From sequence record PV733669.1: a DNA stretch of 53,728 nt. The stretch is one strand, 5' to 3'. The position numbers were made by a program, and so were the translations under genes. Source of the stretch: Escherichia phage ES2-BCU-3. Shown here piece by piece: positions 48,035-53,728 of this stretch. Every line of letters starts with the position of its first letter. Positions within the stretch are counted from its first letter, which is position 1. The notes beneath the pieces are model-generated. The model was not told the DNA's origin and did no database searches. It saw nothing but the letters and a program-made list of their open reading frames with translations.

Positions 48035-48342
48035 TTTTTCCGGCGGAGGCAATGCATATAATCATATATTTGAATATATATCACTTAAACCTTTGTTTTA
48101 TATACTCTTTTCGAATCCATAATCCATATAGCTTTCTTTAAATAATTAAGGGGGTAATAAGGGTACACAAGACCAGATAAAGGGGTAGATATTATTATTT
48201 ATTTATTATATATATTATATATATTTATATATTAGATAAAGAGTAAGTAAAACAGCTACTTAGAAGGCTAGAATCCATATTCACGGGAATATAGTTATAT
48301 GGATTACAGACCGGATAAAGAAAATCCTCCGCCGGCGGAAAA
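48035..48342. other. AT-rich block bounded by inverted repeats (candidate replication origin)
   Basis: Inverted repeats tttttccggcggagg(48035..48049) and cctccgccggcggaaaa(48326..48342); a 45-bp run of only A/T (48191..48235); internal aatccatat/atatggatt inverted repeats; two AGGGGTA direct repeats. Confidence 0.45.
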
Positions 48343-48379
48343 TTTAAAAAAGTCGGATTGCTAAATAAATTCGTAGACG

Positions 48380-48408
48380 TTTACACTGTGATTAATATGT
48401 AGTACAAT
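48380..48408 (+). promoter_or_regulatory. Sigma70-like promoter (TTTACA-17-TACAAT)
   Basis: TTTACA 48380..48385; TACAAT 48403..48408. Confidence 0.45.
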
Positions 48409-48458
48409 AATCACCAATATCCCAAATTAGCAGAATTTTCAACAGGATTGAATACAAT

Positions 48459-48887
48459 ATGGTTAACATTCGAGTAAAAGGCCAAAACTTTGAGCGTAAA
48501 ATGGCAAAAAAATTCAATGAATCATTTGGATTGAGTGTTGAACGCAATCTTCAACAGTCTATTAATGGCGGGGATGACTTACTCGGGGTACCGTTTTTCA
48601 GCGTTGAGCTTAAAAAACACAATACAAAAGCCATCGGTACGTGGTGGCGTCAATGTGAGGAGTCAGCAAAGCGTCATGATAAGACGCCTGTACTAATATA
48701 CGAACTTCCACGCCAAAAGCCAGTCGTTGTAATGCGACGCAGTGACGTGGATGTTGGTATATTACCACTTGGTACAACTTTCAAAGAGGCAACTAACAGG
48801 CTCTTTGTGGGCTTGGTAGAGCTAACATGGGAACAATTTTGCCAGGTCTACAACTTTTACGTTGCGCCTGGCGTTGATGTCAGTTAA
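48459..48887 (+). CDS. Hjc-like Holliday junction resolvase (PD-(D/E)XK), putative
   Basis: KGQNFERKMAKKF...G and DDLLGVPFFSVELKK parallel archaeal Hjc motifs KGxxxER and D...ExK. Confidence 0.5.
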   Translation: MVNIRVKGQNFERKMAKKFNESFGLSVERNLQQSINGGDDLLGVPFFSVELKKHNTKAIGTWWRQCEESAKRHDKTPVLIYELPRQKPVVVMRRSDVDVGILPLGTTFKEATNRLFVGLVELTWEQFCQVYNFYVAPGVDVS

Positions 48888-49068
48888 CAGGTTTTAGCTC
48901 GTCGCAGATAACACGCTGGTTTTGTGCAGGCACTAATCCCAGTTCTAACAAAGTGTATGGACTATCGGCAGCACATTGTTCTACGGTAGTCCATTCAGGT
49001 TTCGCTTCGACAACTTTGTATTCACAGTCGTGTGCAGCGATACAAGTAGCAAGAATCAAACCAATCAT
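48880..49068 (-). CDS. Hypothetical small protein
   Basis: 62-aa ORF with hydrophobic N-terminus. Confidence 0.4.
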   Translation of the reverse strand: MIGLILATCIAAHDCEYKVVEAKPEWTTVEQCAADSPYTLLELGLVPAQNQRVICDELKPVN

Positions 49069-49314
49069 TTATTTACTCCTGATGCCAAGTTTATTGAACA
49101 ACCAAATACACATATCAACCCAGGTTACTGGTACAGTTTTCGGGGGTTGATAAGACCATGCTTTTGCAGCTCGCTCCGCATTTTCTTCTCGCCTGCGCGC
49201 TTGGCGTAATACTTGACTGTCAGTAATGCCGGCAGAAAAAACATCGGCAATGTGAGATAAATCGCGTCGATGAACACGTCCAACCAAATCATTCAGTTGC
49301 TCCTCAGAAAACAT
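49069..49314 (-). CDS. Hypothetical protein
   Basis: 81-aa ORF; GGAG RBS. Confidence 0.45.
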   Translation of the reverse strand: MFSEEQLNDLVGRVHRRDLSHIADVFSAGITDSQVLRQARRREENAERAAKAWSYQPPKTVPVTWVDMCIWLFNKLGIRSK

Positions 49315-49426
49315 AACTCAACACCATACATACGATAACAATACCAATTACAATCCGCCACATGCTACGATTAACAGCATATACCGGATTCTCAGTAGTA
49401 TACTCAACAACATGTTTACGGACCAT
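49304..49426 (-). CDS. Small hydrophobic peptide (40 aa), not in the ORF track
   Basis: ATG at 49426 preceded by AAGGAGG (6-nt spacer); encodes MVRKHVVEYTTENPVYAVNRSMWRIVIGIVIVCMVLSYVF with one TM-like helix; stop TGA 49304..49306. Confidence 0.4.
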   Translation of the reverse strand: MVRKHVVEYTTENPVYAVNRSMWRIVIGIVIVCMVLSYVF

Positions 49427-49448
49427 AATCGGCCTCCTTGTGGGTTAA

Positions 49449-49493
49449 TTCAATCATGAGGACTTTCATCAAATCCTCATTGTTGAATTACTC
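49449..49493 (-). promoter_or_regulatory. Conserved-flank intergenic hairpin (early operon element 1)
   Basis: Minus strand reads GAGTAA-TTCAACA-[ATGAGGA...TCCTCAT]-GATTGAA; 7-bp stem between the upstream stop and the next RBS. Confidence 0.5.
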
Positions 49494-49793
49494 ATCATCA
49501 GCAGTATAATTGGAAATATCTTCCGCCAATGTTTCAATGTCAAACACCGCATTCAAGAAAGAATGCTCAACAACAGCTTTATCAAGTTCATCATCATAAT
49601 AAAGCTCAATGTAACTACCATACAACTCTTCTACACTTTCAATTGCAGGATAAATCTCATGCACTGCAGCATAGAAATCATCAAAATTATCAAAACAACG
49701 ACAATTTGTCAACTCTTGACCTTGCATCATTTCAACTAACTCATTAGTCAGATAAAAATAGCAATTGTGCTGGTTAATAATGAATGGTGTCAT
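49488..49793 (-). CDS. Hypothetical acidic protein
   Basis: ATG at 49793 with GAGGAGAG RBS (track ORF starts at TTG 49820); strongly acidic. Confidence 0.5.
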   Translation of the reverse strand: MTPFIINQHNCYFYLTNELVEMMQGQELTNCRCFDNFDDFYAAVHEIYPAIESVEELYGSYIELYYDDELDKAVVEHSFLNAVFDIETLAEDISNYTADDE

Positions 49794-49818
49794 GTTTCTC
49801 TCCTCAGTGATATTAATC

Positions 49819-49839
49819 AAGTCCCGGATACCGAGACTT
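49819..49839 (-). promoter_or_regulatory. Intergenic hairpin (early operon element 2)
   Basis: 9-bp stem aagtcccgg/ccgagactt with 3-nt loop; lies upstream of the 49793 start. Confidence 0.4.
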
Positions 49840-49847
49840 TGTTAATT

Positions 49848-50048
49848 TCACTCAATCATCACCTGAGCTACTATTATACACTCTTTATTGAATCTGGTAA
49901 ACACTTTACCTGCATTGGTACGTTTTGCACCAGCTTTTAATGCAGTTTGTGTCCAGACATTCCACTCTTCAGTTGTCAAAAATTGTTGGTCAACTTTTGG
50001 AGGTAACTGTTGAGCTATATGAACTGTAGTAAATTTGATTAATGGCAT
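49848..50048 (-). CDS. Hypothetical protein
   Basis: ATG at 50048 (MPLIKF...), 10-nt overlap with the upstream gene; track ORF starts at 50078. Confidence 0.4.
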   Translation of the reverse strand: MPLIKFTTVHIAQQLPPKVDQQFLTTEEWNVWTQTALKAGAKRTNAGKVFTRFNKECIIVAQVMIE

Positions 50049-50275
50049 ACACCACCATAACTTTGGATTTGTACACAAAAACTTCTGAAATTGTGAAGAG
50101 GAATATCGTCACAATTAATGAAGTATTGACCAGTTAAAGATTTCAAACCAAACCGCACATAACCTTTGTTAAGGTTGAGACGCACAATCTCACAAAATAA
50201 ATCATATGCGCCCAATTCCTGAACTTTTGGATGATTGATGTCTGGGTTAAAGTCAATCAGCATTTCTACTTTCAT
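50039..50275 (-). CDS. Hypothetical protein
   Basis: ATG at 50275 with AGGAG RBS (track ORF starts at TTG 50302). Confidence 0.5.
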   Translation of the reverse strand: MKVEMLIDFNPDINHPKVQELGAYDLFCEIVRLNLNKGYVRFGLKSLTGQYFINCDDIPLHNFRSFCVQIQSYGGVCH

Positions 50276-50296
50276 GTTTCTTCTCCTGTTGAATAA

Positions 50297-50347
50297 TTTC
50301 AATCATGAACTATCGCAACTTTGATAGTTCATTGTTGAAACTATTGC
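50297..50347 (-). promoter_or_regulatory. Conserved-flank intergenic hairpin (early operon element 3)
   Basis: Minus strand reads TAG-TTTCAACA-[ATGAACTATC...GATAGTTCAT]-GATTGAAA; 10-bp stem 50305..50314/50323..50332. Confidence 0.5.
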
Positions 50348-50529
50348 AATTTTGTACTAATTTGAATCGTGAGTCTGAATTGTTCAAGTAAGTCGCTAAC
50401 GCGAGAATTATCTTCAACACTAGACTCAATTTGATCACTAACAATTTGAGCATTTGATTCAAGAAGTTCAATCAAGTGCGCCAATTCGTCTGCTGTCAGT
50501 TTAAGTTCTTTCATAATTTTAACAACCAT
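50341..50529 (-). CDS. Hypothetical small protein
   Basis: 62-aa acidic ORF. Confidence 0.45.
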   Translation of the reverse strand: MVVKIMKELKLTADELAHLIELLESNAQIVSDQIESSVEDNSRVSDLLEQFRLTIQISTKLQ

Positions 50530-50774
50530 CCCATTACCAGTCCAAGGTCAGCAATATCATCACTGTCACGTTCACCGTCTTTGAATTCAGTACAGAACAT
50601 TCGCATGATTTGTGCCAAATTCATATTGATGACATACGCATGAATTTTCAAGTCTTCAAGAGGAGTGTCAAGTACTAATTGACCAAACTCCTGAAAACTT
50701 TCGTCCCAATTCAAGAACCATTCACGTGCGTAATGATGCAACTTGTCCATCAGGTCTTTGTCGTCAAGTGTCAT
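50511..50774 (-). CDS. Hypothetical protein
   Basis: 87-aa ORF; RBS AGGAG upstream of ATG 50774. Confidence 0.5.
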   Translation of the reverse strand: MTLDDKDLMDKLHHYAREWFLNWDESFQEFGQLVLDTPLEDLKIHAYVINMNLAQIMRMFCTEFKDGERDSDDIADLGLVMGWLLKL

Positions 50775-50796
50775 GTTTTTTACTCCTGTTGATTAA

Positions 50797-50842
50797 TAAT
50801 TTCAATCCAGACCTCTCGTAAGAGGTCTGTCAGAAATTACTC
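50797..50842 (-). promoter_or_regulatory. Conserved-flank intergenic hairpin (early operon element 4)
   Basis: Minus strand reads GAGTAA-TTTCTGAC-[AGACCTCT-UACG-AGAGGTCT]-GGATTGAAA; 9-bp stem 50808..50816/50821..50829. Confidence 0.5.
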
Positions 50843-51403
50843 TTCAGTTTCTTGTTCCGGAGCTTTATCATCAGCTTTATCATCAGTTTTTACAACTGAT
50901 TTACCGTCAGTGATTTTACCGGATTTTACATCATTACGGTAGTATGACATATAAGACTGTACAACACGTTTTGCCTTAATATCATCATCTGCCATTTCAC
51001 AAGCTTTCATTGCATCTGCAAGTGCCAGCTTGGAATCTTCTTTGTCCAGCAAGTTGTAATCTTTGAACACGGTATAGCATGTGTCCTTAGTTGATGGACC
51101 AGTTGAAGTTTTACGGGTGCCACCAGTGCTGGATTTTTGTTTGACTGCAACATGCTGAACTTCAAGCTGATTGAGTTCATCAAACAATGCCTTCATCATC
51201 ACTTCTTTGGAATCTTTGATTGTGCAGGTAGTCTCATCATTGAGACTTTTAATCATTTTCAACAGTTGATTGCGTTCAAAATGCTGGAGAGCATTCTGCT
51301 GCACAATCATTGACGCCATAGTGTCGTCAGTTGTCAGACCGTCCATCACAGCTTCAACAGAAAACGCGGAAGTAATGTAAACGTAGTTGATTGCAGTAGT
51401 CAT
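50837..51403 (-). CDS. Hypothetical protein (188 aa)
   Basis: ORF with GAGAGGA RBS; Lys/Asp-rich C-terminus. Confidence 0.5.
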   Translation of the reverse strand: MTTAINYVYITSAFSVEAVMDGLTTDDTMASMIVQQNALQHFERNQLLKMIKSLNDETTCTIKDSKEVMMKALFDELNQLEVQHVAVKQKSSTGGTRKTSTGPSTKDTCYTVFKDYNLLDKEDSKLALADAMKACEMADDDIKAKRVVQSYMSYYRNDVKSGKITDGKSVVKTDDKADDKAPEQETEE

Positions 51404-51455
51404 GTTTGTATCCTCTCATTGATAGATTTTTGATTGTCAATCCTTGACAAGTAAG

Positions 51456-51501
51456 TCCAATCATGACAACTTTGGTAAGTTGTCATTGTTGGAAATTACT
51501 C
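51456..51501 (-). promoter_or_regulatory. Conserved-flank intergenic hairpin (early operon element 5)
   Basis: Minus strand reads GAGTAA-TTTCCAACA-[ATGACAACTT-ACCA-AAGTTGTCAT]-GATTGGA; stem 51464..51472/51477..51485; a second palindrome ttgtcaa/ttgacaa lies at 51433..51451. Confidence 0.5.
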
Positions 51502-51645
51502 TTGATATTTGACTACTTGTGACTGGATAAAATCAACACAATCGTCCACGTCCATTGACTCAAAGTCTGGAACTGGTCCATTGTTAATGTTGACACACCA
51601 CAGTCCCTCATTGTCATCATACCAAAGTGTATAATTGTCTTTCAT
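51496..51645 (-). CDS. Hypothetical small protein (first gene of the early minus-strand operon)
   Basis: ATG at 51645 with GAGGTGA RBS 6 nt upstream; track ORF extends to GTG 51699 through a hairpin. Confidence 0.45.
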   Translation of the reverse strand: MKDNYTLWYDDNEGLWCVNINNGPVPDFESMDVDDCVDFIQSQVVKYQE

Positions 51646-51675
51646 AATAGTCACCTCATGTATTAGTTTCCAGGT

Positions 51676-51699
51676 GTGACTACTGTTACCAATAGTCAC
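51676..51699 (-). promoter_or_regulatory. Leader hairpin with the same 5' flank as the intergenic hairpins
   Basis: Minus strand reads GTAATAGTTTCAACCA-[GTGACTA...TAGTCAC]; 7-bp stem 51676..51682/51693..51699. Confidence 0.4.
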
Positions 51700-51886
51700 T
51701 GGTTGAAACTATTACTTGTGTTACTATCAACAAGAAACATGTTAACCAGATTGTTAAAGAGCAAAAGACACCATTGACCATCTACCAGATGTGTCTGTTG
51801 ACTGGTTGAGTACTAACAACATAAGTAACTACATAAATCCTCCTGAACCATTCTTGTGTTGAATTGTTCAACACATTCAATAAATA

Positions 51887-51916
51887 TATAATAGTCCAAT
51901 CGCTATTGATTGTACA
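51887..51916 (-). promoter_or_regulatory. Candidate early promoter for the minus-strand small-gene operon
   Basis: TTGTACATAAA at 51910..51920 matches the recurring GTGTACATA -35 region; TATATA/TATTAT -10-like hexamers 17-18 nt away on the minus strand. Confidence 0.35.
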
Positions 51917-51966
51917 TAAAAGAATTGCAAGTTAGTGCAAGTATTTAGAAACGATAATCACTTGCG

Positions 51967-52226
51967 GTTGATAGTGGTTCTCGATTACAATTGATATAGT
52001 TACTCGAGTAATCACTTCGTTTGAAATGGTCGGCAGGGGTTATAGTTACATAGGGGTGCTATCTAATAGGGCCGGCGAAATTATTTATAAAAATATAATT
52101 TCAATCTGAATTGTAGACGCTTTGAACTACTTCGGCCGAAACTGCTACACGGGTAATAGTTACTCTGGTAATGATTGCGTTGGTAATAGTTCACAACGAA
52201 ATAGGGTGCGGGGGGTATAATCACTC
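51967..52226. repeat. Iteron-like array of about 13-bp direct repeats (consensus GGTAATAGTTACTC)
   Basis: Copies at 51993..52005 (gatatagttactc), 52039..52049 (gttatagttac), 52152..52165 (ggtaatagttactc), 52182..52194 (ggtaatagttcac); degenerate copies at 51967, 52006, 52167, 52214; inverted copy at 51707..51715; AT-rich tract 52081..52100. Confidence 0.55.
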
Positions 52227-52412
52227 TGTGTGACCAATTTTAAGCGCCGACGGATTTTTTTATTTTTTGCTCCTTTTTAGACTCCTAGTACTCAATCATC
52301 ATCATATCAATCACGATTGTGTTACCATAAAGCCTTTTGTACAGAAATTGGAGGCCCCTCCAAAAATTTTTTATATTTTTCTGGAATTGTGTAGACATCT
52401 GTTAAAAAGTGG

Positions 52413-52441
52413 TGTACTTTTTTCTCACCACGCGCTATCAT
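52413..52441 (+). promoter_or_regulatory. Early-type promoter (GGTGTACT -35 region, TATCAT -10)
   Basis: TGTACT 52413..52418, 17-nt spacer, TATCAT 52436..52441; -35 inside inverted repeat gtggtg/caccac. Confidence 0.45.
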
Positions 52442-52505
52442 TAATTATCATCAACAACGACGTGTCAACGGACTTGCCTTGACCGTCCCTACTTGTGGGT
52501 TACAT

Positions 52506-53015
52506 ATGGAACTAGTCACTTTGACTCCGTATCCTCCGCAATTAGCTGTTGTGCTGAGTAAAAAACAGCATGATGAGCTGATTAAAGAGATGGATTTGCC
52601 TCCTTTTGGCCACTGGGAGGATGAATTTCCTGTCGCTGCAACAACTTTTACCTTCAACCGTAAGAGCTATCCCTATTGCTTTATAGTCGTAGAGCTCTAC
52701 CTCCCGGACGACCTCCGCTACAATACCATATCCCACGAAGGCATCCATGTCATGTCGTCATTAATGAAGTATGTCGGTCTTAAGTACGACGCAGATAACG
52801 ACGAATGGTATGCTTATCAGCATGATTTTATCGTAAACGCCATTTGTAAGGCTCATGACGAGTATATAAAGGCCAAAAAAGAGCAAGAAATTGCTCCAAA
52901 ACGCATAGAAACGGGCAATCATCCGTCTCTTGATGACACTCCACCTTGGCCTGAGCATGACCCAATGAAGGCCTTACTTTCCGAACCATCATCACAGGAT
53001 TTTTTAAATGACTGA
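52506..53015 (+). CDS. HExxH zinc metallopeptidase-like protein (putative)
   Basis: Contains HEGIH, a zincin-type HExxH motif; ATG at 52506 (track ORF starts at TTG 52479). Confidence 0.45.
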   Translation: MELVTLTPYPPQLAVVLSKKQHDELIKEMDLPPFGHWEDEFPVAATTFTFNRKSYPYCFIVVELYLPDDLRYNTISHEGIHVMSSLMKYVGLKYDADNDEWYAYQHDFIVNAICKAHDEYIKAKKEQEIAPKRIETGNHPSLDDTPPWPEHDPMKALLSEPSSQDFLND

Positions 53016-53277
53016 AGCAAACATCCTCGACCTGCCAGTAATCGAAAAAGGCAAACATCTCGAAGTTACTGTTGCGTATGACGCAAAATGCCGTTTACGC
53101 AAGCTTCGTGGCGGCTTTATCACGCGAAACATACAGGCAACGGCCAAATTTGGCTGTTACGGTGAGTTGGATATTGATTCAGCTAAACATCAGCTTGAAC
53201 ACTTGCTTGCCAATAAGTATGGCGCTCGTCGTATTCGCTGGGAAATGTTCAAAATCGTTTCGGAGGTAGAGCTGTGA
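53008..53277 (+). CDS. Hypothetical protein
   Basis: 89-aa ORF overlapping neighbours at both ends. Confidence 0.45.
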   Translation: MTEANILDLPVIEKGKHLEVTVAYDAKCRLRKLRGGFITRNIQATAKFGCYGELDIDSAKHQLEHLLANKYGARRIRWEMFKIVSEVEL

Positions 53278-53728
53278 TTAATATCATGTTTGCAATGGGT
53301 CAGGAAGGCGAATTTGGCCGCTCGCTTGAACTGCACCGTAAGCTGGTTAGTGAAGCCAAAACCGCAGAAGAGGTCCGTCTGCTTCCATTATCCGGTCTCC
53401 CATGGAAGTGTCCGAGTGACATGCTGTTTTTCAGGACTATGACTAATTCAATCGCAACAGAACCAGGCTATAATGCCTTTGAGCAACTCCGGGGTCTCTT
53501 CCCACAGGAGCATCTGCTCAATATGATTCGCGATGTGACAAGCAGAATGGTCGGTCATAGTGTATTGTTAGCCGGTGTGAAAACGTATCAGACTATGAGC
53601 TTACCTATGACAGCCCACCGAATACTGCTGCCGGTGTCTCATTCTATCTTGGCTTCAGAAGGCTACAACAATATAGGTGAGTTGGCAGCAGCACTTGAAG
53701 ACCGTGGTTCAGACGTTTGGGTTGTTGG
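53274..53728 (+). CDS. Dihydrofolate reductase, 5' portion (runs off the window end; continues at 1..344)
   Basis: GTG 53274 overlapping the upstream stop (GTGA) with GGAGG 7 nt upstream (alternative ATG 53286); LPWKCPSDMLFFRTMT matches the DHFR PWxxPxDxxxF region. Confidence 0.7.
   Translation, partial: MINIMFAMGQEGEFGRSLELHRKLVSEAKTAEEVRLLPLSGLPWKCPSDMLFFRTMTNSIATEPGYNAFEQLRGLFPQEHLLNMIRDVTSRMVGHSVLLAGVKTYQTMSLPMTAHRILLPVSHSILASEGYNNIGELAAALEDRGSDVWVV
53602..53728. repeat. Terminal direct repeat, copy 2 (identical to 1..127)
   Basis: Exact 127-bp match to the window start. Confidence 0.9.

What the first reader, a model, noticed from the sequence alone, without database searches (positions are those of the whole stretch)
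52506..53015. Early gene encoding an HExxH (zincin-like) motif protein
The first plus-strand gene downstream of the early control region contains HEGIH in a context compatible with a small metallopeptidase. Early phage metallopeptidase-like proteins can be regulators of repressor cleavage or host-takeover and anti-defence factors. The function is not inferable from sequence alone.
Basis: partly seen in the sequence, partly recalled or inferred. Interest (0 to 1): 0.45.

Follow-up and report, generated by a model that had tools for sequence, protein, structure and literature searches.

The report
Small phage zinc-protease-like gene
The gene is real and belongs to a widespread but unstudied family of very small phage proteins that carry the full sequence signature of a zinc protease; its target is unknown, and it is not the DNA-end-binding 'Ku' protein it was once annotated as.

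Summary
Observation confirmed. The window is a Loughboroughvirus genome (99% identical to Salmonella phages ZCSE2 and S144). ORF 52506-53015 (+) encodes a 169-aa protein with HEGIH at residues 77-81.

The motif is not a chance match. In 159 homologues of about 25% identity, H77, E78, H81 and E100 are 100% conserved and Y104 is 99% conserved. The spacing HExxH-x18-E holds in 135 of 158 homologues. This is the Glu-zincin signature.

AlphaFold2 gives a confident 130-residue core with the element order of a minimal zincin, followed by a disordered acidic tail. The tail carries two clade-specific motifs, IETGNHP and a C-terminal DFL[ND]D.

The S144 'Ku protein' annotation is unsupported. An ImmA-like repressor protease and a SprT-type protease both fail their membership tests. 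'Early' timing is inferred, not shown.

Best reading: a soluble, non-structural minimal Glu-zincin metallopeptidase, most likely an accessory protease with an unknown host or phage target. It is a new variant of a known kind and of moderate interest.

The parts
52506..53015 (+). CDS of the 169-aa HExxH protein (orthologue of S144 ORF01 and fHy-Eco03 gp12), stop codon included
52506..52895 (+). Predicted catalytic core, residues 1-130: b1(2-5) b2(12-16) aA(19-28) b3(45-51) b4(58-64) aB(72-90) aC(100-129); pLDDT above 91
   Evidence: the same secondary-structure elements in two independent models
52734..52748 (+). HEGIH (H77, E78, H81): putative two zinc ligands plus the general-base Glu, on helix aB
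   Evidence: 100% conserved in 159 sequences; present in 158 of 158 true homologues
52797..52817 (+). NDEWYAY (residues 98-104). E100 is the putative third zinc ligand at the start of helix aC. Y104 lies one helical turn later. N98 is 87% and A103 is 87% conserved.
   Evidence: E100 100% and Y104 99% conserved; spacing HExxH-x18-E in 135 of 158
52896..53012 (+). Acidic C-terminal tail, residues 131-169 (pI 4.5), predicted disordered with one short helix (153-159). Present only in the Rosemountvirus/Loughboroughvirus clade.
   Evidence: pLDDT about 50-60 in both models; alignment A1; pI; most homologues end at about 130 aa
52905..52925 (+). Conserved tail motif I-E-T-G-N-H-P (residues 134-140)
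   Evidence: nearly invariant within the clade; also present in fHy-Eco03 gp12 as IDTGNHP
52998..53012 (+). C-terminal acidic-hydrophobic motif D-F-L-N-D (consensus [DS]FL[DNG]D, with or without K). F166 and L167 are invariant in the clade.
52495..52499 (+). Shine-Dalgarno-like GTGGG, 6 nt upstream of the ATG
   Evidence: sequence; conserved block TTGTGGGTTA in fHy-Eco03; S144 annotates an RBS here
52422..52451 (+). Nearest sigma-70-like promoter match (TTCTCA-18-TATCAT) upstream of the gene. The -10 block CGCTATCATTA is conserved in fHy-Eco03. This is a consensus match only.
53008..53277 (+). Downstream 89-aa ORF02, whose start overlaps the target's stop by 8 nt (probably translationally coupled). 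No family assignment.

Best explanation
The gene encodes a soluble, cytoplasmic, non-structural zinc metallohydrolase of the zincin type. It is most probably a minimal Glu-zincin peptidase.

Shown:
- There is a real, conserved and translated ORF.
- The family signature HExxH-x18-E-x3-Y has invariant H77, E78, H81 and E100.
- The predicted 130-residue core has the element order sheet, backing helix, HExxH helix, Glu helix.
- The family (PHROG 1365) is phage-specific and uncurated.

Inferred:
- H77, H81 and E100 bind one Zn2+.
- E78 activates the water.
- Y104, one turn after E100, supports the metal site or the transition state.
- The enzyme cuts peptide bonds in a protein or an unfolded tail.

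In this clade the core carries a 40-residue disordered acidic tail with two conserved short motifs (IETGNHP and C-terminal DFL[ND]D). I infer that the tail either docks the protease on its partner or substrate, or occupies its own cleft as an autoinhibitor.

The gene is the first cistron of the rightward 'cluster A' operon, just inside the unique region next to the terminal repeat, so it is probably made early to middle in infection.

The homologues have patchy, context-hopping positions in many unrelated lytic phages. This fits an accessory protease acting on a host protein (takeover or counter-defence) better than a core replication or morphogenesis enzyme.
For: - Motif and conservation.
- Structure: pLDDT 88 overall and above 91 for residues 1-130, with HExxH on helix 72-90 and E100/Y104 at the start of helix 100-129. 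A shallow alignment reproduced the same elements.
- Every recurring sub-threshold family hit, and most of the single-member ones, are to zincin families: DUF5700 in 12 of 149 members, SprT-like in 8, M78 in 2, plus DUF2268, Astacin, M91 and Aspzincin_M35.
- The top PDB profile hits are projannalysin (E 0.5), M3 peptidases and peptidyl-Lys metalloendopeptidase.
- BFVD fold neighbours (28 with E<1e-3) include viral proteins labelled SprT-like, Metalloprotease and PolyVal metallopeptidase.
- The family is soluble and mostly acidic, with no hydrophobic stretch of 16 or more residues.
- It is phage-only. There were 240 cluster representatives in the exhaustive search. The single plasmid-database hit is a 53-kb, phage-genome-sized record. 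The single bacterial-genome hit is an 18.5-kb MAG contig.
- Genomic contexts vary.
- The protein is expressed: fHy-Eco03 Gp12 peptides were detected.
- It is absent from the S144 virion proteome list.
- The gene is under purifying selection.
Against:
- No curated HMM matches the protein.
- The authors of the fHy-Eco03 paper report no significant HHpred hit for the orthologue.
- No substrate, metal content, activity or phenotype is known.
- Timing is inferred from position only.
- The conservation figures carry some ascertainment bias, because the homologues were retrieved with a profile that contains the motif.
Confidence: 0.6

Rival explanations
1. SprT/Wss1/Spartan-like protease that works on DNA, removing covalently trapped proteins or processing replication proteins as part of the phage DNA-metabolism module.
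For: Some homologues sit inside replication modules. In Otaku the gene lies between the DNA polymerase and a nuclease. In FPSV-S2 it follows a Pol III epsilon gene and a DNA methylase. In Acinetobacter phage Loki, gp24 is linked to SprT-like domains by HHsearch and lies in the replication cluster, and a Loki protein is a BFVD fold neighbour. SprT-like is the second most frequent weak Pfam hit. In this window the gene heads a nucleotide-metabolism cluster.
Against: The query has no SprT-like Pfam hit. hhalign of the family profile against E. coli SprT aligns only the HExxH turn, with probability 3%. The third conserved ligand is Glu, not the His of SprT/WLM, and there is no other invariant His. 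The family is acidic (median pI 5.8; 78% below 7), and only 7 of 159 sequences have any CxxC pair, so a zinc-ribbon DNA-binding module is not a family feature. Other homologues lie outside replication modules.
Confidence: 0.12
2. Morphogenesis- or packaging-associated protease, or a virion-carried protein that is delivered into the cell.
For: fHy-Eco03 Gp12 was scored 'virion associated' by LC-MS/MS. In Skarpretter and IME_EC2 the homologue lies directly upstream of, and overlapping, the large terminase gene. Here the gene lies next to the genome terminus, 6 genes before terS/terL.
Against: The same fHy-Eco03 preparation also contained the primase/helicase, DNA polymerase, thymidylate synthase and DHFR, so it is not specific for virion proteins. 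The protein is not in the S144 virion proteome, which lists ORF03 and then ORF08 onward. Most homologues are not near morphogenesis genes.
Confidence: 0.08
3. Zincin-fold hydrolase that is not a peptidase, for example one acting on a nucleotide or a small amide in the phage's nucleotide or DNA-modification pathway.
For: The gene is co-oriented and probably co-transcribed with DHFR-like and thymidylate-kinase-like genes. DNA of the related fHy-Eco03 resists 9 of 10 restriction enzymes, which suggests base modification. From general knowledge, some HExxH-fold proteins such as E. coli YgjP are reported as nucleotide pyrophosphatases.
Against: The association with nucleotide genes is not conserved across the family. 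The HExxH+E+Y signature and the strand-before-helix context are those of peptidases. No nucleotide-binding motif was found. My recollection that the fused domain in P0014 is NTP-pyrophosphatase-like got no Pfam support.
Confidence: 0.07
4. ImmA/IrrE-type (M78) regulatory protease that cleaves a repressor, one of the first reader's suggestions.
For: M78 enzymes are also Glu-zincins (general knowledge). 2 of 149 family members give weak M78 hits, best E 3.5e-4.
Against: The query has no M78 hit. None of the seven neighbouring ORFs scanned, on either side, gives any significant Pfam hit, so no HTH partner is seen. These phages are reported as virulent, without integrase or lysogeny genes. The core is much smaller than ImmA or IrrE and has no sensor domain.
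Confidence: 0.04
5. Ku/Gam-like DNA-end-binding protein that protects the injected linear genome, which is the published S144 annotation.
For: The S144 record and paper call ORF01 a 'putative Ku protein' on the basis of an InterPro SPOC-like C-terminal domain superfamily match. The gene is adjacent to a genome end.
Confidence: 0.02

Closest known systems
Mini-Glu-zincins (MEROPS M95: proabylysin 4JIU, projannalysin 4JIX)
   Same: Soluble proteins of about 100-130 residues made only of the zincin catalytic core. The element order is sheet, backing helix, HExxH helix, Glu helix, with Glu as the third ligand. Projannalysin is the best, though non-significant, PDB sequence hit (E 0.5). From general knowledge, these proteins are autoinhibited by C-terminal tails, a precedent for one reading of the tail here. 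PMC3890501 describes the mini-zincin concept.
   Different: There is no significant sequence or fold match. The M95 proteins come from archaea and bacteria, not phages. This family has its own signature (G91, D95, N98-D99-E100, A103-Y104) and an extra N-terminal strand.
Mini-zincin Acel_2062 / TTHA0227 (MEROPS M94; 3E11, 2EJQ)
   Different: M94 has the Asp-zincin/Met-zincin-type motif HExxHxxGxxD, whereas this family has a distant Glu. The match is no better than noise.
SprT-like / Wss1 / Spartan zincins (Pfam PF10263)
   Same: Small HExxH cores common in phages. This is a recurrent weak Pfam hit (8 of 149 members, best E 1.8e-4). Several BFVD fold neighbours carry this label.
   Different: The query does not reach any threshold. 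hhalign against E. coli SprT gives probability 3%. The third ligand is Glu, not His, and there is no DNA-binding module.
ArdC-type MPTase-PolyVal metallopeptidase domains of plasmids and phages
   Same: A zincin domain of mobile elements used against host restriction (PMC7213743). This is the best functional precedent for an anti-defence zincin. One BFVD neighbour is labelled PolyVal metallopeptidase (E 0.044).
   Different: ArdC has an N-terminal ssDNA-binding domain and is plasmid-borne. No sequence relationship was detected here, and the family is absent from plasmids.
M1 aminopeptidase zinc signature HExxH-x18-E
   Same: The ligand spacing is identical. The M1 signature itself is from general knowledge.
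   Different: M1 enzymes are large multidomain exopeptidases with a GxMEN motif, which is absent here (sequence). There is no homology signal.
ImmA/IrrE (M78) regulatory Glu-zincins
   Same: HExxH plus a downstream Glu, and use by mobile elements.
   Different: The spacing is longer, there is an extra sensor domain, and the enzyme is paired with an HTH repressor. None of these is found here.

Membership tests
Zincin superfamily (MEROPS clan MA) | HExxH on an alpha-helix that directly follows an edge beta-strand of a mixed sheet | tested here: met
   HEGIH at residues 77-81 lies within predicted helix 72-90, preceded by strand 58-64. The motif is invariant in the 159 aligned family sequences.
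Zincin superfamily (MEROPS clan MA) | Overall fold superposable on solved zincins | tested here: inconclusive
Glu-zincins (subclan MA(E)) | Third zinc ligand is a Glu on the helix after the HExxH helix | tested here: met
   Met at the sequence and secondary-structure level. E100 is 100% conserved, sits at the start of helix 100-129, and lies 19 residues after H81 in 135 of 158 homologues.
Glu-zincins (subclan MA(E)) | Zinc binding and peptidase activity | not testable with these tools
   Needs purified protein, metal analysis and a cleavage assay.
Mini-Glu-zincins (MEROPS M95) | Sequence or structural homology to proabylysin or projannalysin | tested here: inconclusive
SprT-like (Pfam PF10263) | HMM match above the gathering score | tested here: not met
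   The query has no hit even at E<=10. Only 8 of 149 relatives give weak hits. hhalign against E. coli SprT gives probability 3%.
SprT-like (Pfam PF10263) | Third metal ligand is a His downstream of HExxH | tested here: not met
   No conserved His exists other than H77 and H81. The invariant residue is E100.
ImmA/IrrE (Peptidase_M78, PF06114) | HMM match, and pairing with a cognate HTH repressor gene | tested here: not met
   The query has no M78 hit. None of the seven neighbouring ORFs scanned gives a significant Pfam hit, so no HTH partner is seen. The phage group is reported to lack lysogeny genes.
Ku / Mu Gam DNA-end-binding proteins (S144 annotation) | Ku or Gam HMM match, or a Ku-like beta-barrel/ring fold | tested here: not met
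   There is no Pfam or NCBIfam hit. The predicted fold is a small alpha/beta core with no Ku or Gam among the structural matches.
M1 aminopeptidases | HExxH-x18-E together with a GxMEN exopeptidase motif and a multidomain architecture | tested here: not met
   The spacing is met. No GxMEN is present in the 169-aa sequence (one search prints it), the protein has a single small domain, and there is no Pfam hit.
PHROG 1365 (phage protein family of unknown function) | HMM match over the whole profile | tested here: met
   E 5.5e-24, residues 4-126 against profile positions 8-125 of 127.
Known anti-phage defence components (PADLOC-DB) | HMM match | tested here: not met
   No hit at E<=10.

The most novel reading that the evidence does not exclude
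PHROG 1365 is a phage-specific lineage of minimal Glu-zincins that phages deploy as accessory proteases to cut a specific host protein, either a defence or stress-response factor or a takeover target. In the Rosemountvirus/Loughboroughvirus clade the added disordered tail (IETGNHP ... DFL[ND]D-COOH) would be the targeting peptide that docks the protease on that host protein. That would make it a proteolytic counter-defence or host-takeover factor of a kind barely documented for phages.
Probability: 0.2. Interest if true: 0.65.

Novelty: new variant of a known kind. Interest (0 to 1): 0.4.

Why it matters
If this is an active protease, it defines an uncurated family of minimal Glu-zincins that is widespread in phages. 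The exhaustive search found 240 representatives of 50%-identity clusters. BFVD fold neighbours include crAss-like, Erwinia, Pseudomonas, Ralstonia, Acinetobacter and Achromobacter phages, and sequence homologues occur in Flavobacterium, Klebsiella, Serratia and Enterobacter phages. The family has no Pfam model and no solved structure.

Proteolysis is an under-explored mode of phage-host conflict, so identifying the substrate could reveal a new takeover or counter-defence target.

More immediately, the result corrects a published functional annotation ('Ku protein' in phage S144) that could propagate to related therapeutic Salmonella, E. coli and Klebsiella phages. It also gives a precise catalytic-residue map (H77, E78, H81, E100, Y104) for mutagenesis.

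Tried and rejected
- Curated HMM libraries (Pfam, NCBIfam, PADLOC) gave nothing for the query. PHROGs gave only an unknown-function family.
- PDB sequence searches with the single protein and with three profiles gave nothing significant.
- The Ku/Gam annotation is rejected. ImmA-like repressor cleavage is rejected. SprT membership is rejected.
- No conserved partner gene was found. The downstream overlapping gene differs between phages: an 89-aa ORF here, terL in Skarpretter and IME_EC2, a nuclease in Otaku, and a DUF6965 protein in a metagenomic contig.
- The family is absent from plasmids and bacterial chromosomes.
- My recollection that the domain fused in P0014/P0049 is NTP-pyrophosphatase-like got no support.
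- A second AF2 run with only tail-bearing sequences did not raise tail confidence, so there is no evidence that the tail docks on the core.
- No Rfam family lies in or around the gene.
- Literature searches found no characterised member, no transcriptome for these genera and no phage mini-Glu-zincin report.
- P0037 (870 aa) was a spurious repeat-protein hit and was excluded.

Full report
**What the window is.** The 53,728-bp window is essentially a whole Loughboroughvirus genome. Region 51800-53728 is 99.5% identical to Salmonella phage ZCSE2 and 98.9% identical to S144. The assembly is circularly permuted, so the DHFR-like gene that starts at about 53273 continues at the window start.

**Checking the observation.** The ORF at 52506-53015 on the plus strand is present exactly as described. 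It has an ATG start, a TGA stop and encodes 169 aa. HEGIH is residues 77-81, at nt 52734-52748.

- The ATG is the likely start. All homologues begin at the same Met, an SD-like GTGGG lies 6 nt upstream and is conserved in a different genus, and S144 annotates the same CDS.
- The gene is under purifying selection. Against SE4 there are 11 synonymous and 5 non-synonymous codon differences, and three of the five lie in a tail linker.
- A 38%-identical orthologue, fHy-Eco03 Gp12, has been seen as protein, with 3 peptides and 7 PSMs.
- HExxH is rare in this genome. It occurs twice in 38,196 residues of stop-free six-frame sequence, and only this copy has the extended signature.

**Is the motif meaningful?** The word-indexed search found only close relatives. 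An exhaustive HMMER profile search of 1.84 billion cluster representatives found 240 proteins at E<=1e-3. Most of them are 110-150 aa long.

- All 158 true homologues retrieved contain HExxH. The one exception, P0037, is a spurious repeat protein.
- After hmmalign of 159 sequences with about 25% identity to the query, H77, E78, H81 and E100 are 100% conserved and Y104 is 99% conserved. G91 is 89%, N98 87%, A103 87%, D99 75% and D95 74% conserved.
- The second His and the Glu are exactly 19 residues apart in 135 of 158 homologues.
- HExxH-x18-E is a Glu-zincin signature. By general knowledge it has the same spacing as in M1 aminopeptidases and one residue less than in thermolysin.
- Annotated phage homologues that I translated all carry the signature: Skarpretter, IME_EC2, FPSV-S2, FpV4, Otaku, Entb_48 and an unannotated ORF in VLCpiS6a.
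- One caveat applies. The homologues were collected with a profile that contains the motif, so some ascertainment bias exists. Complete invariance against a background of about 12% mean column identity is still strong evidence of function.

**Structure.** AlphaFold2 with the 61-sequence alignment gives mean pLDDT 88, above 91 for residues 1-130 and about 60 for residues 131-169.

- The elements are b1 2-5, b2 12-16, aA 19-28, b3 45-51, b4 58-64, aB 72-90 (HExxH), aC 100-129 (E100, Y104), and a short helix at 153-157.
- A second run with only the 11 tail-bearing sequences gave the same elements and an even less confident tail.
- The order sheet, backing helix, active-site helix, glutamate helix is that of minimal zincins, as described in PMC3890501.
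- Coordinates are not exposed, so I could not measure the metal-site geometry. This is the main gap in the argument.
- Against predicted viral structures (BFVD) there are 28 matches at E<1e-3. They come from crAss-like, Erwinia, Pseudomonas, Ralstonia, Acinetobacter, Achromobacter and Eggerthella phages. A few carry automatic labels of 'SprT-like', 'Metalloprotease' or 'PolyVal metallopeptidase'.

**Family placement.**

- The query matches no Pfam, NCBIfam or PADLOC model even at E<=10. It matches PHROG 1365, of unknown function, at 5.5e-24.
- I scanned 149 family members individually against Pfam. Every recurring weak hit, and most of the single-member ones, are to zincin families: DUF5700 in 12 members, SprT-like in 8, M78 in 2, and single hits to DUF2268, Astacin, M91 and Aspzincin_M35.
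- PDB profile searches put projannalysin (a mini-Glu-zincin, E 0.5), M3 oligopeptidases and peptidyl-Lys metalloendopeptidase on top. None is significant.
- hhalign of the family profile against E. coli SprT aligns only the HExxH turn, with probability 3%.
- The protein therefore has the defining sequence features of the Glu-zincin subclan but belongs to no curated family.

**The tail.** Only the Rosemountvirus/Loughboroughvirus clade carries residues 131-169. The tail is acidic (pI 4.5), predicted disordered, and variable apart from two motifs. These are I-[EA]-T-G-N-H-P at 134-140 and a C-terminal [DS]-F-L-[DNG]-D, with F166 and L167 invariant. The motifs survive in the 38%-identical fHy-Eco03 orthologue as IDTGNHP and GFLDGK. 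Conserved short motifs in a disordered tail suggest either docking onto a partner or occupation of the enzyme's own cleft. By general knowledge, the archaeal mini-Glu-zincins are autoinhibited by their C-terminal tails. Neither reading is tested here.

**Genomic and biological context.**

- The gene is the first of S144 'cluster A': ORF01, a small ORF02, a DHFR-like gene, a thymidylate-kinase-like gene, two unknowns, and then terS, terL and portal.
- Upstream lies a 626-bp gap, followed by the divergent, AT-rich block of small genes.
- That gap is collinear with the inner edge of the 3,699-bp direct terminal repeat of fHy-Eco03. The boundary maps to about window 52248, some 257 bp before the ATG.
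- The S144 paper maps a physical genome end to the same gap. The 'early control region' is therefore also the genome terminus.
- Early or middle expression is a reasonable inference from this position. No transcriptome exists for these genera.
- The protein is not in the S144 virion proteome list.
- Its detection in the fHy-Eco03 particle preparation is uninformative about location. That preparation also contained polymerase, primase/helicase, thymidylate synthase and DHFR.
- fHy-Eco03 g12 is not mentioned among the toxic or candidate-toxic genes in the sections I read. I did not check whether it was among the genes screened.

**Distribution of homologues.** Homologues occur only in phages. 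The one plasmid-database hit is a 53-kb, phage-genome-sized record. The single bacterial-genome hit is an 18.5-kb MAG contig.

Their neighbourhoods vary:
- between DNA polymerase and a nuclease in Otaku;
- after a DNA methylase in FPSV-S2;
- overlapping the start of terL in Skarpretter and IME_EC2;
- among small unknown genes in FpV4, VLCpiS6a and a metagenomic contig.

No partner gene is conserved. Rare fusions exist: to a WYL_2 domain in P0062, and to an unknown domain plus a zinc ribbon in P0014 and P0049. The family is soluble and mostly acidic, and CxxC pairs are rare.

**Interpretation.**

- *Most likely, about 0.6:* a soluble, non-structural minimal Glu-zincin. H77, H81 and E100 would bind Zn2+, E78 would act as the general base, and Y104 would support the site. 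It would act as a peptidase on an unknown protein. The patchy, context-hopping distribution fits an accessory role in host takeover or counter-defence better than a core function. ArdC (PMC7213743) is a precedent for a mobile-element zincin working against restriction.
- *Rival, about 0.12:* a SprT-like DNA-associated protease. Some replication-module contexts favour it. The Glu ligand, acidity and lack of any DNA-binding module argue against it.
- *Rival, about 0.08:* a packaging or virion protease.
- *Rival, about 0.07:* a non-peptidase hydrolase in nucleotide or DNA-modification metabolism.
- *Rival, about 0.04:* an ImmA-like repressor protease.
- *Rival, about 0.02:* the published Ku/Gam annotation, which no test supports.

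This is a new variant of a known kind. It is an uncurated, phage-specific minimal Glu-zincin family, here with a motif-bearing disordered tail.

Interest is moderate at 0.4. The chemistry is familiar and no phenotype is known. However, the family is widespread, has no curated model or solved structure, has been misannotated in the literature, and could reveal a proteolytic route of phage-host conflict.

Noticed in passing
window 51880-52505 (boundary at about 52248): The intergenic gap upstream of the gene is collinear with the inner end of the 3,699-bp direct terminal repeat of Rosemountvirus fHy-Eco03. The S144 paper maps a physical genome end to this same gap. By collinearity the collapsed terminal repeat in this window would span roughly 48260-52250, covering the resolvase gene and the block of small leftward genes.
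   Followed up: partly
window 51988-52224: Three to four copies of a GGTAATAGTTAC-like 12-16-mer, plus a 35-nt imperfect direct repeat (51996-52030 and 52156-52190), lie just inside the inferred terminal-repeat edge. They could be terminase, replication or regulator binding sites. The genome-wide count of the 12-mer is not significant on its own (7 found against 3.7 expected), but the copies cluster.
   Followed up: partly
window 52348-52363 and 52393-52451: A perfect two-way terminator-like hairpin, TTGGAGGCCCCTCCAA, with a T-run lies between the repeat edge and the gene. It is followed by a block conserved between genera (AAAAAGTGGTGTACTTTT ... CGCTATCATTA) that contains a hairpin and the nearest promoter-like match. 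A perfect TATAAT at about 52215-52220 sits upstream of the terminator and could drive a short transcript across the repeat edge.
   Followed up: no
window 53008-53277 (+): The 89-aa ORF02 overlaps the target's stop codon by 8 nt. It is 34% identical to fHy-Eco03 gp13 but has no Pfam or PHROG family. No counterpart was detected in the 98-aa ORF of a more distant relative.
   Followed up: partly
window 53273-53728 and 1-344: The DHFR-like gene is split by the window ends, so the record is a circularly permuted assembly of a linear, terminally redundant genome.
   Followed up: no
L001 4708-5217 (S144 ORF01, QMV47827.1): The 99%-identical S144 protein is annotated and discussed in print as a 'putative Ku protein' similar to Mu Gam. 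Nothing found here supports that.
   Followed up: yes
L006 2770-3189 (Skarpretter); L010 2240-2671 (IME_EC2): In two podovirus genera the family member (139-143 aa, full HExxH-x18-E-x3-Y signature, basic N-terminal extension) sits immediately upstream of, and overlapping, the large terminase gene. That is the slot usually held by a small terminase.
   Followed up: partly
L009 about 2400-2800 (Klebsiella phage VLCpiS6a): A family member with the full signature is encoded in a stretch left unannotated in the GenBank record.
   Followed up: partly
proteins P0062, P0014, P0049: Rare fusions of the zincin core exist. P0062 is fused to a WYL_2 (Sm-like SH3) domain. P0014 and P0049 are fused to a roughly 250-aa unknown domain (PHROG 16519/4838-like) that ends in a CxxC...CxxC zinc ribbon.
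   Followed up: partly
protein P0009 (Salmonella phage SPHG1): The tail motif KPKIETGNH appears inserted in the N-terminal region and is missing from the tail. This is either a rearrangement or an assembly or annotation artefact.
   Followed up: no
window 49455 (+): The only other HExxH (HEDFH) in a stop-free stretch of at least 60 aa lies on the plus strand. The block of small genes from about 48.9 kb onward is annotated on the minus strand in S144. It is probably a chance match.
   Followed up: no
window 49300-51900: The leftward small-gene block has low GC (0.34-0.40, against 0.43-0.49 for the target gene and downstream) and strongly negative GC skew, as the S144 authors noted for their 'cluster E'. 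In the related fHy-Eco03, a gene from the corresponding terminal-repeat block (g05) is toxic in E. coli.
   Followed up: no
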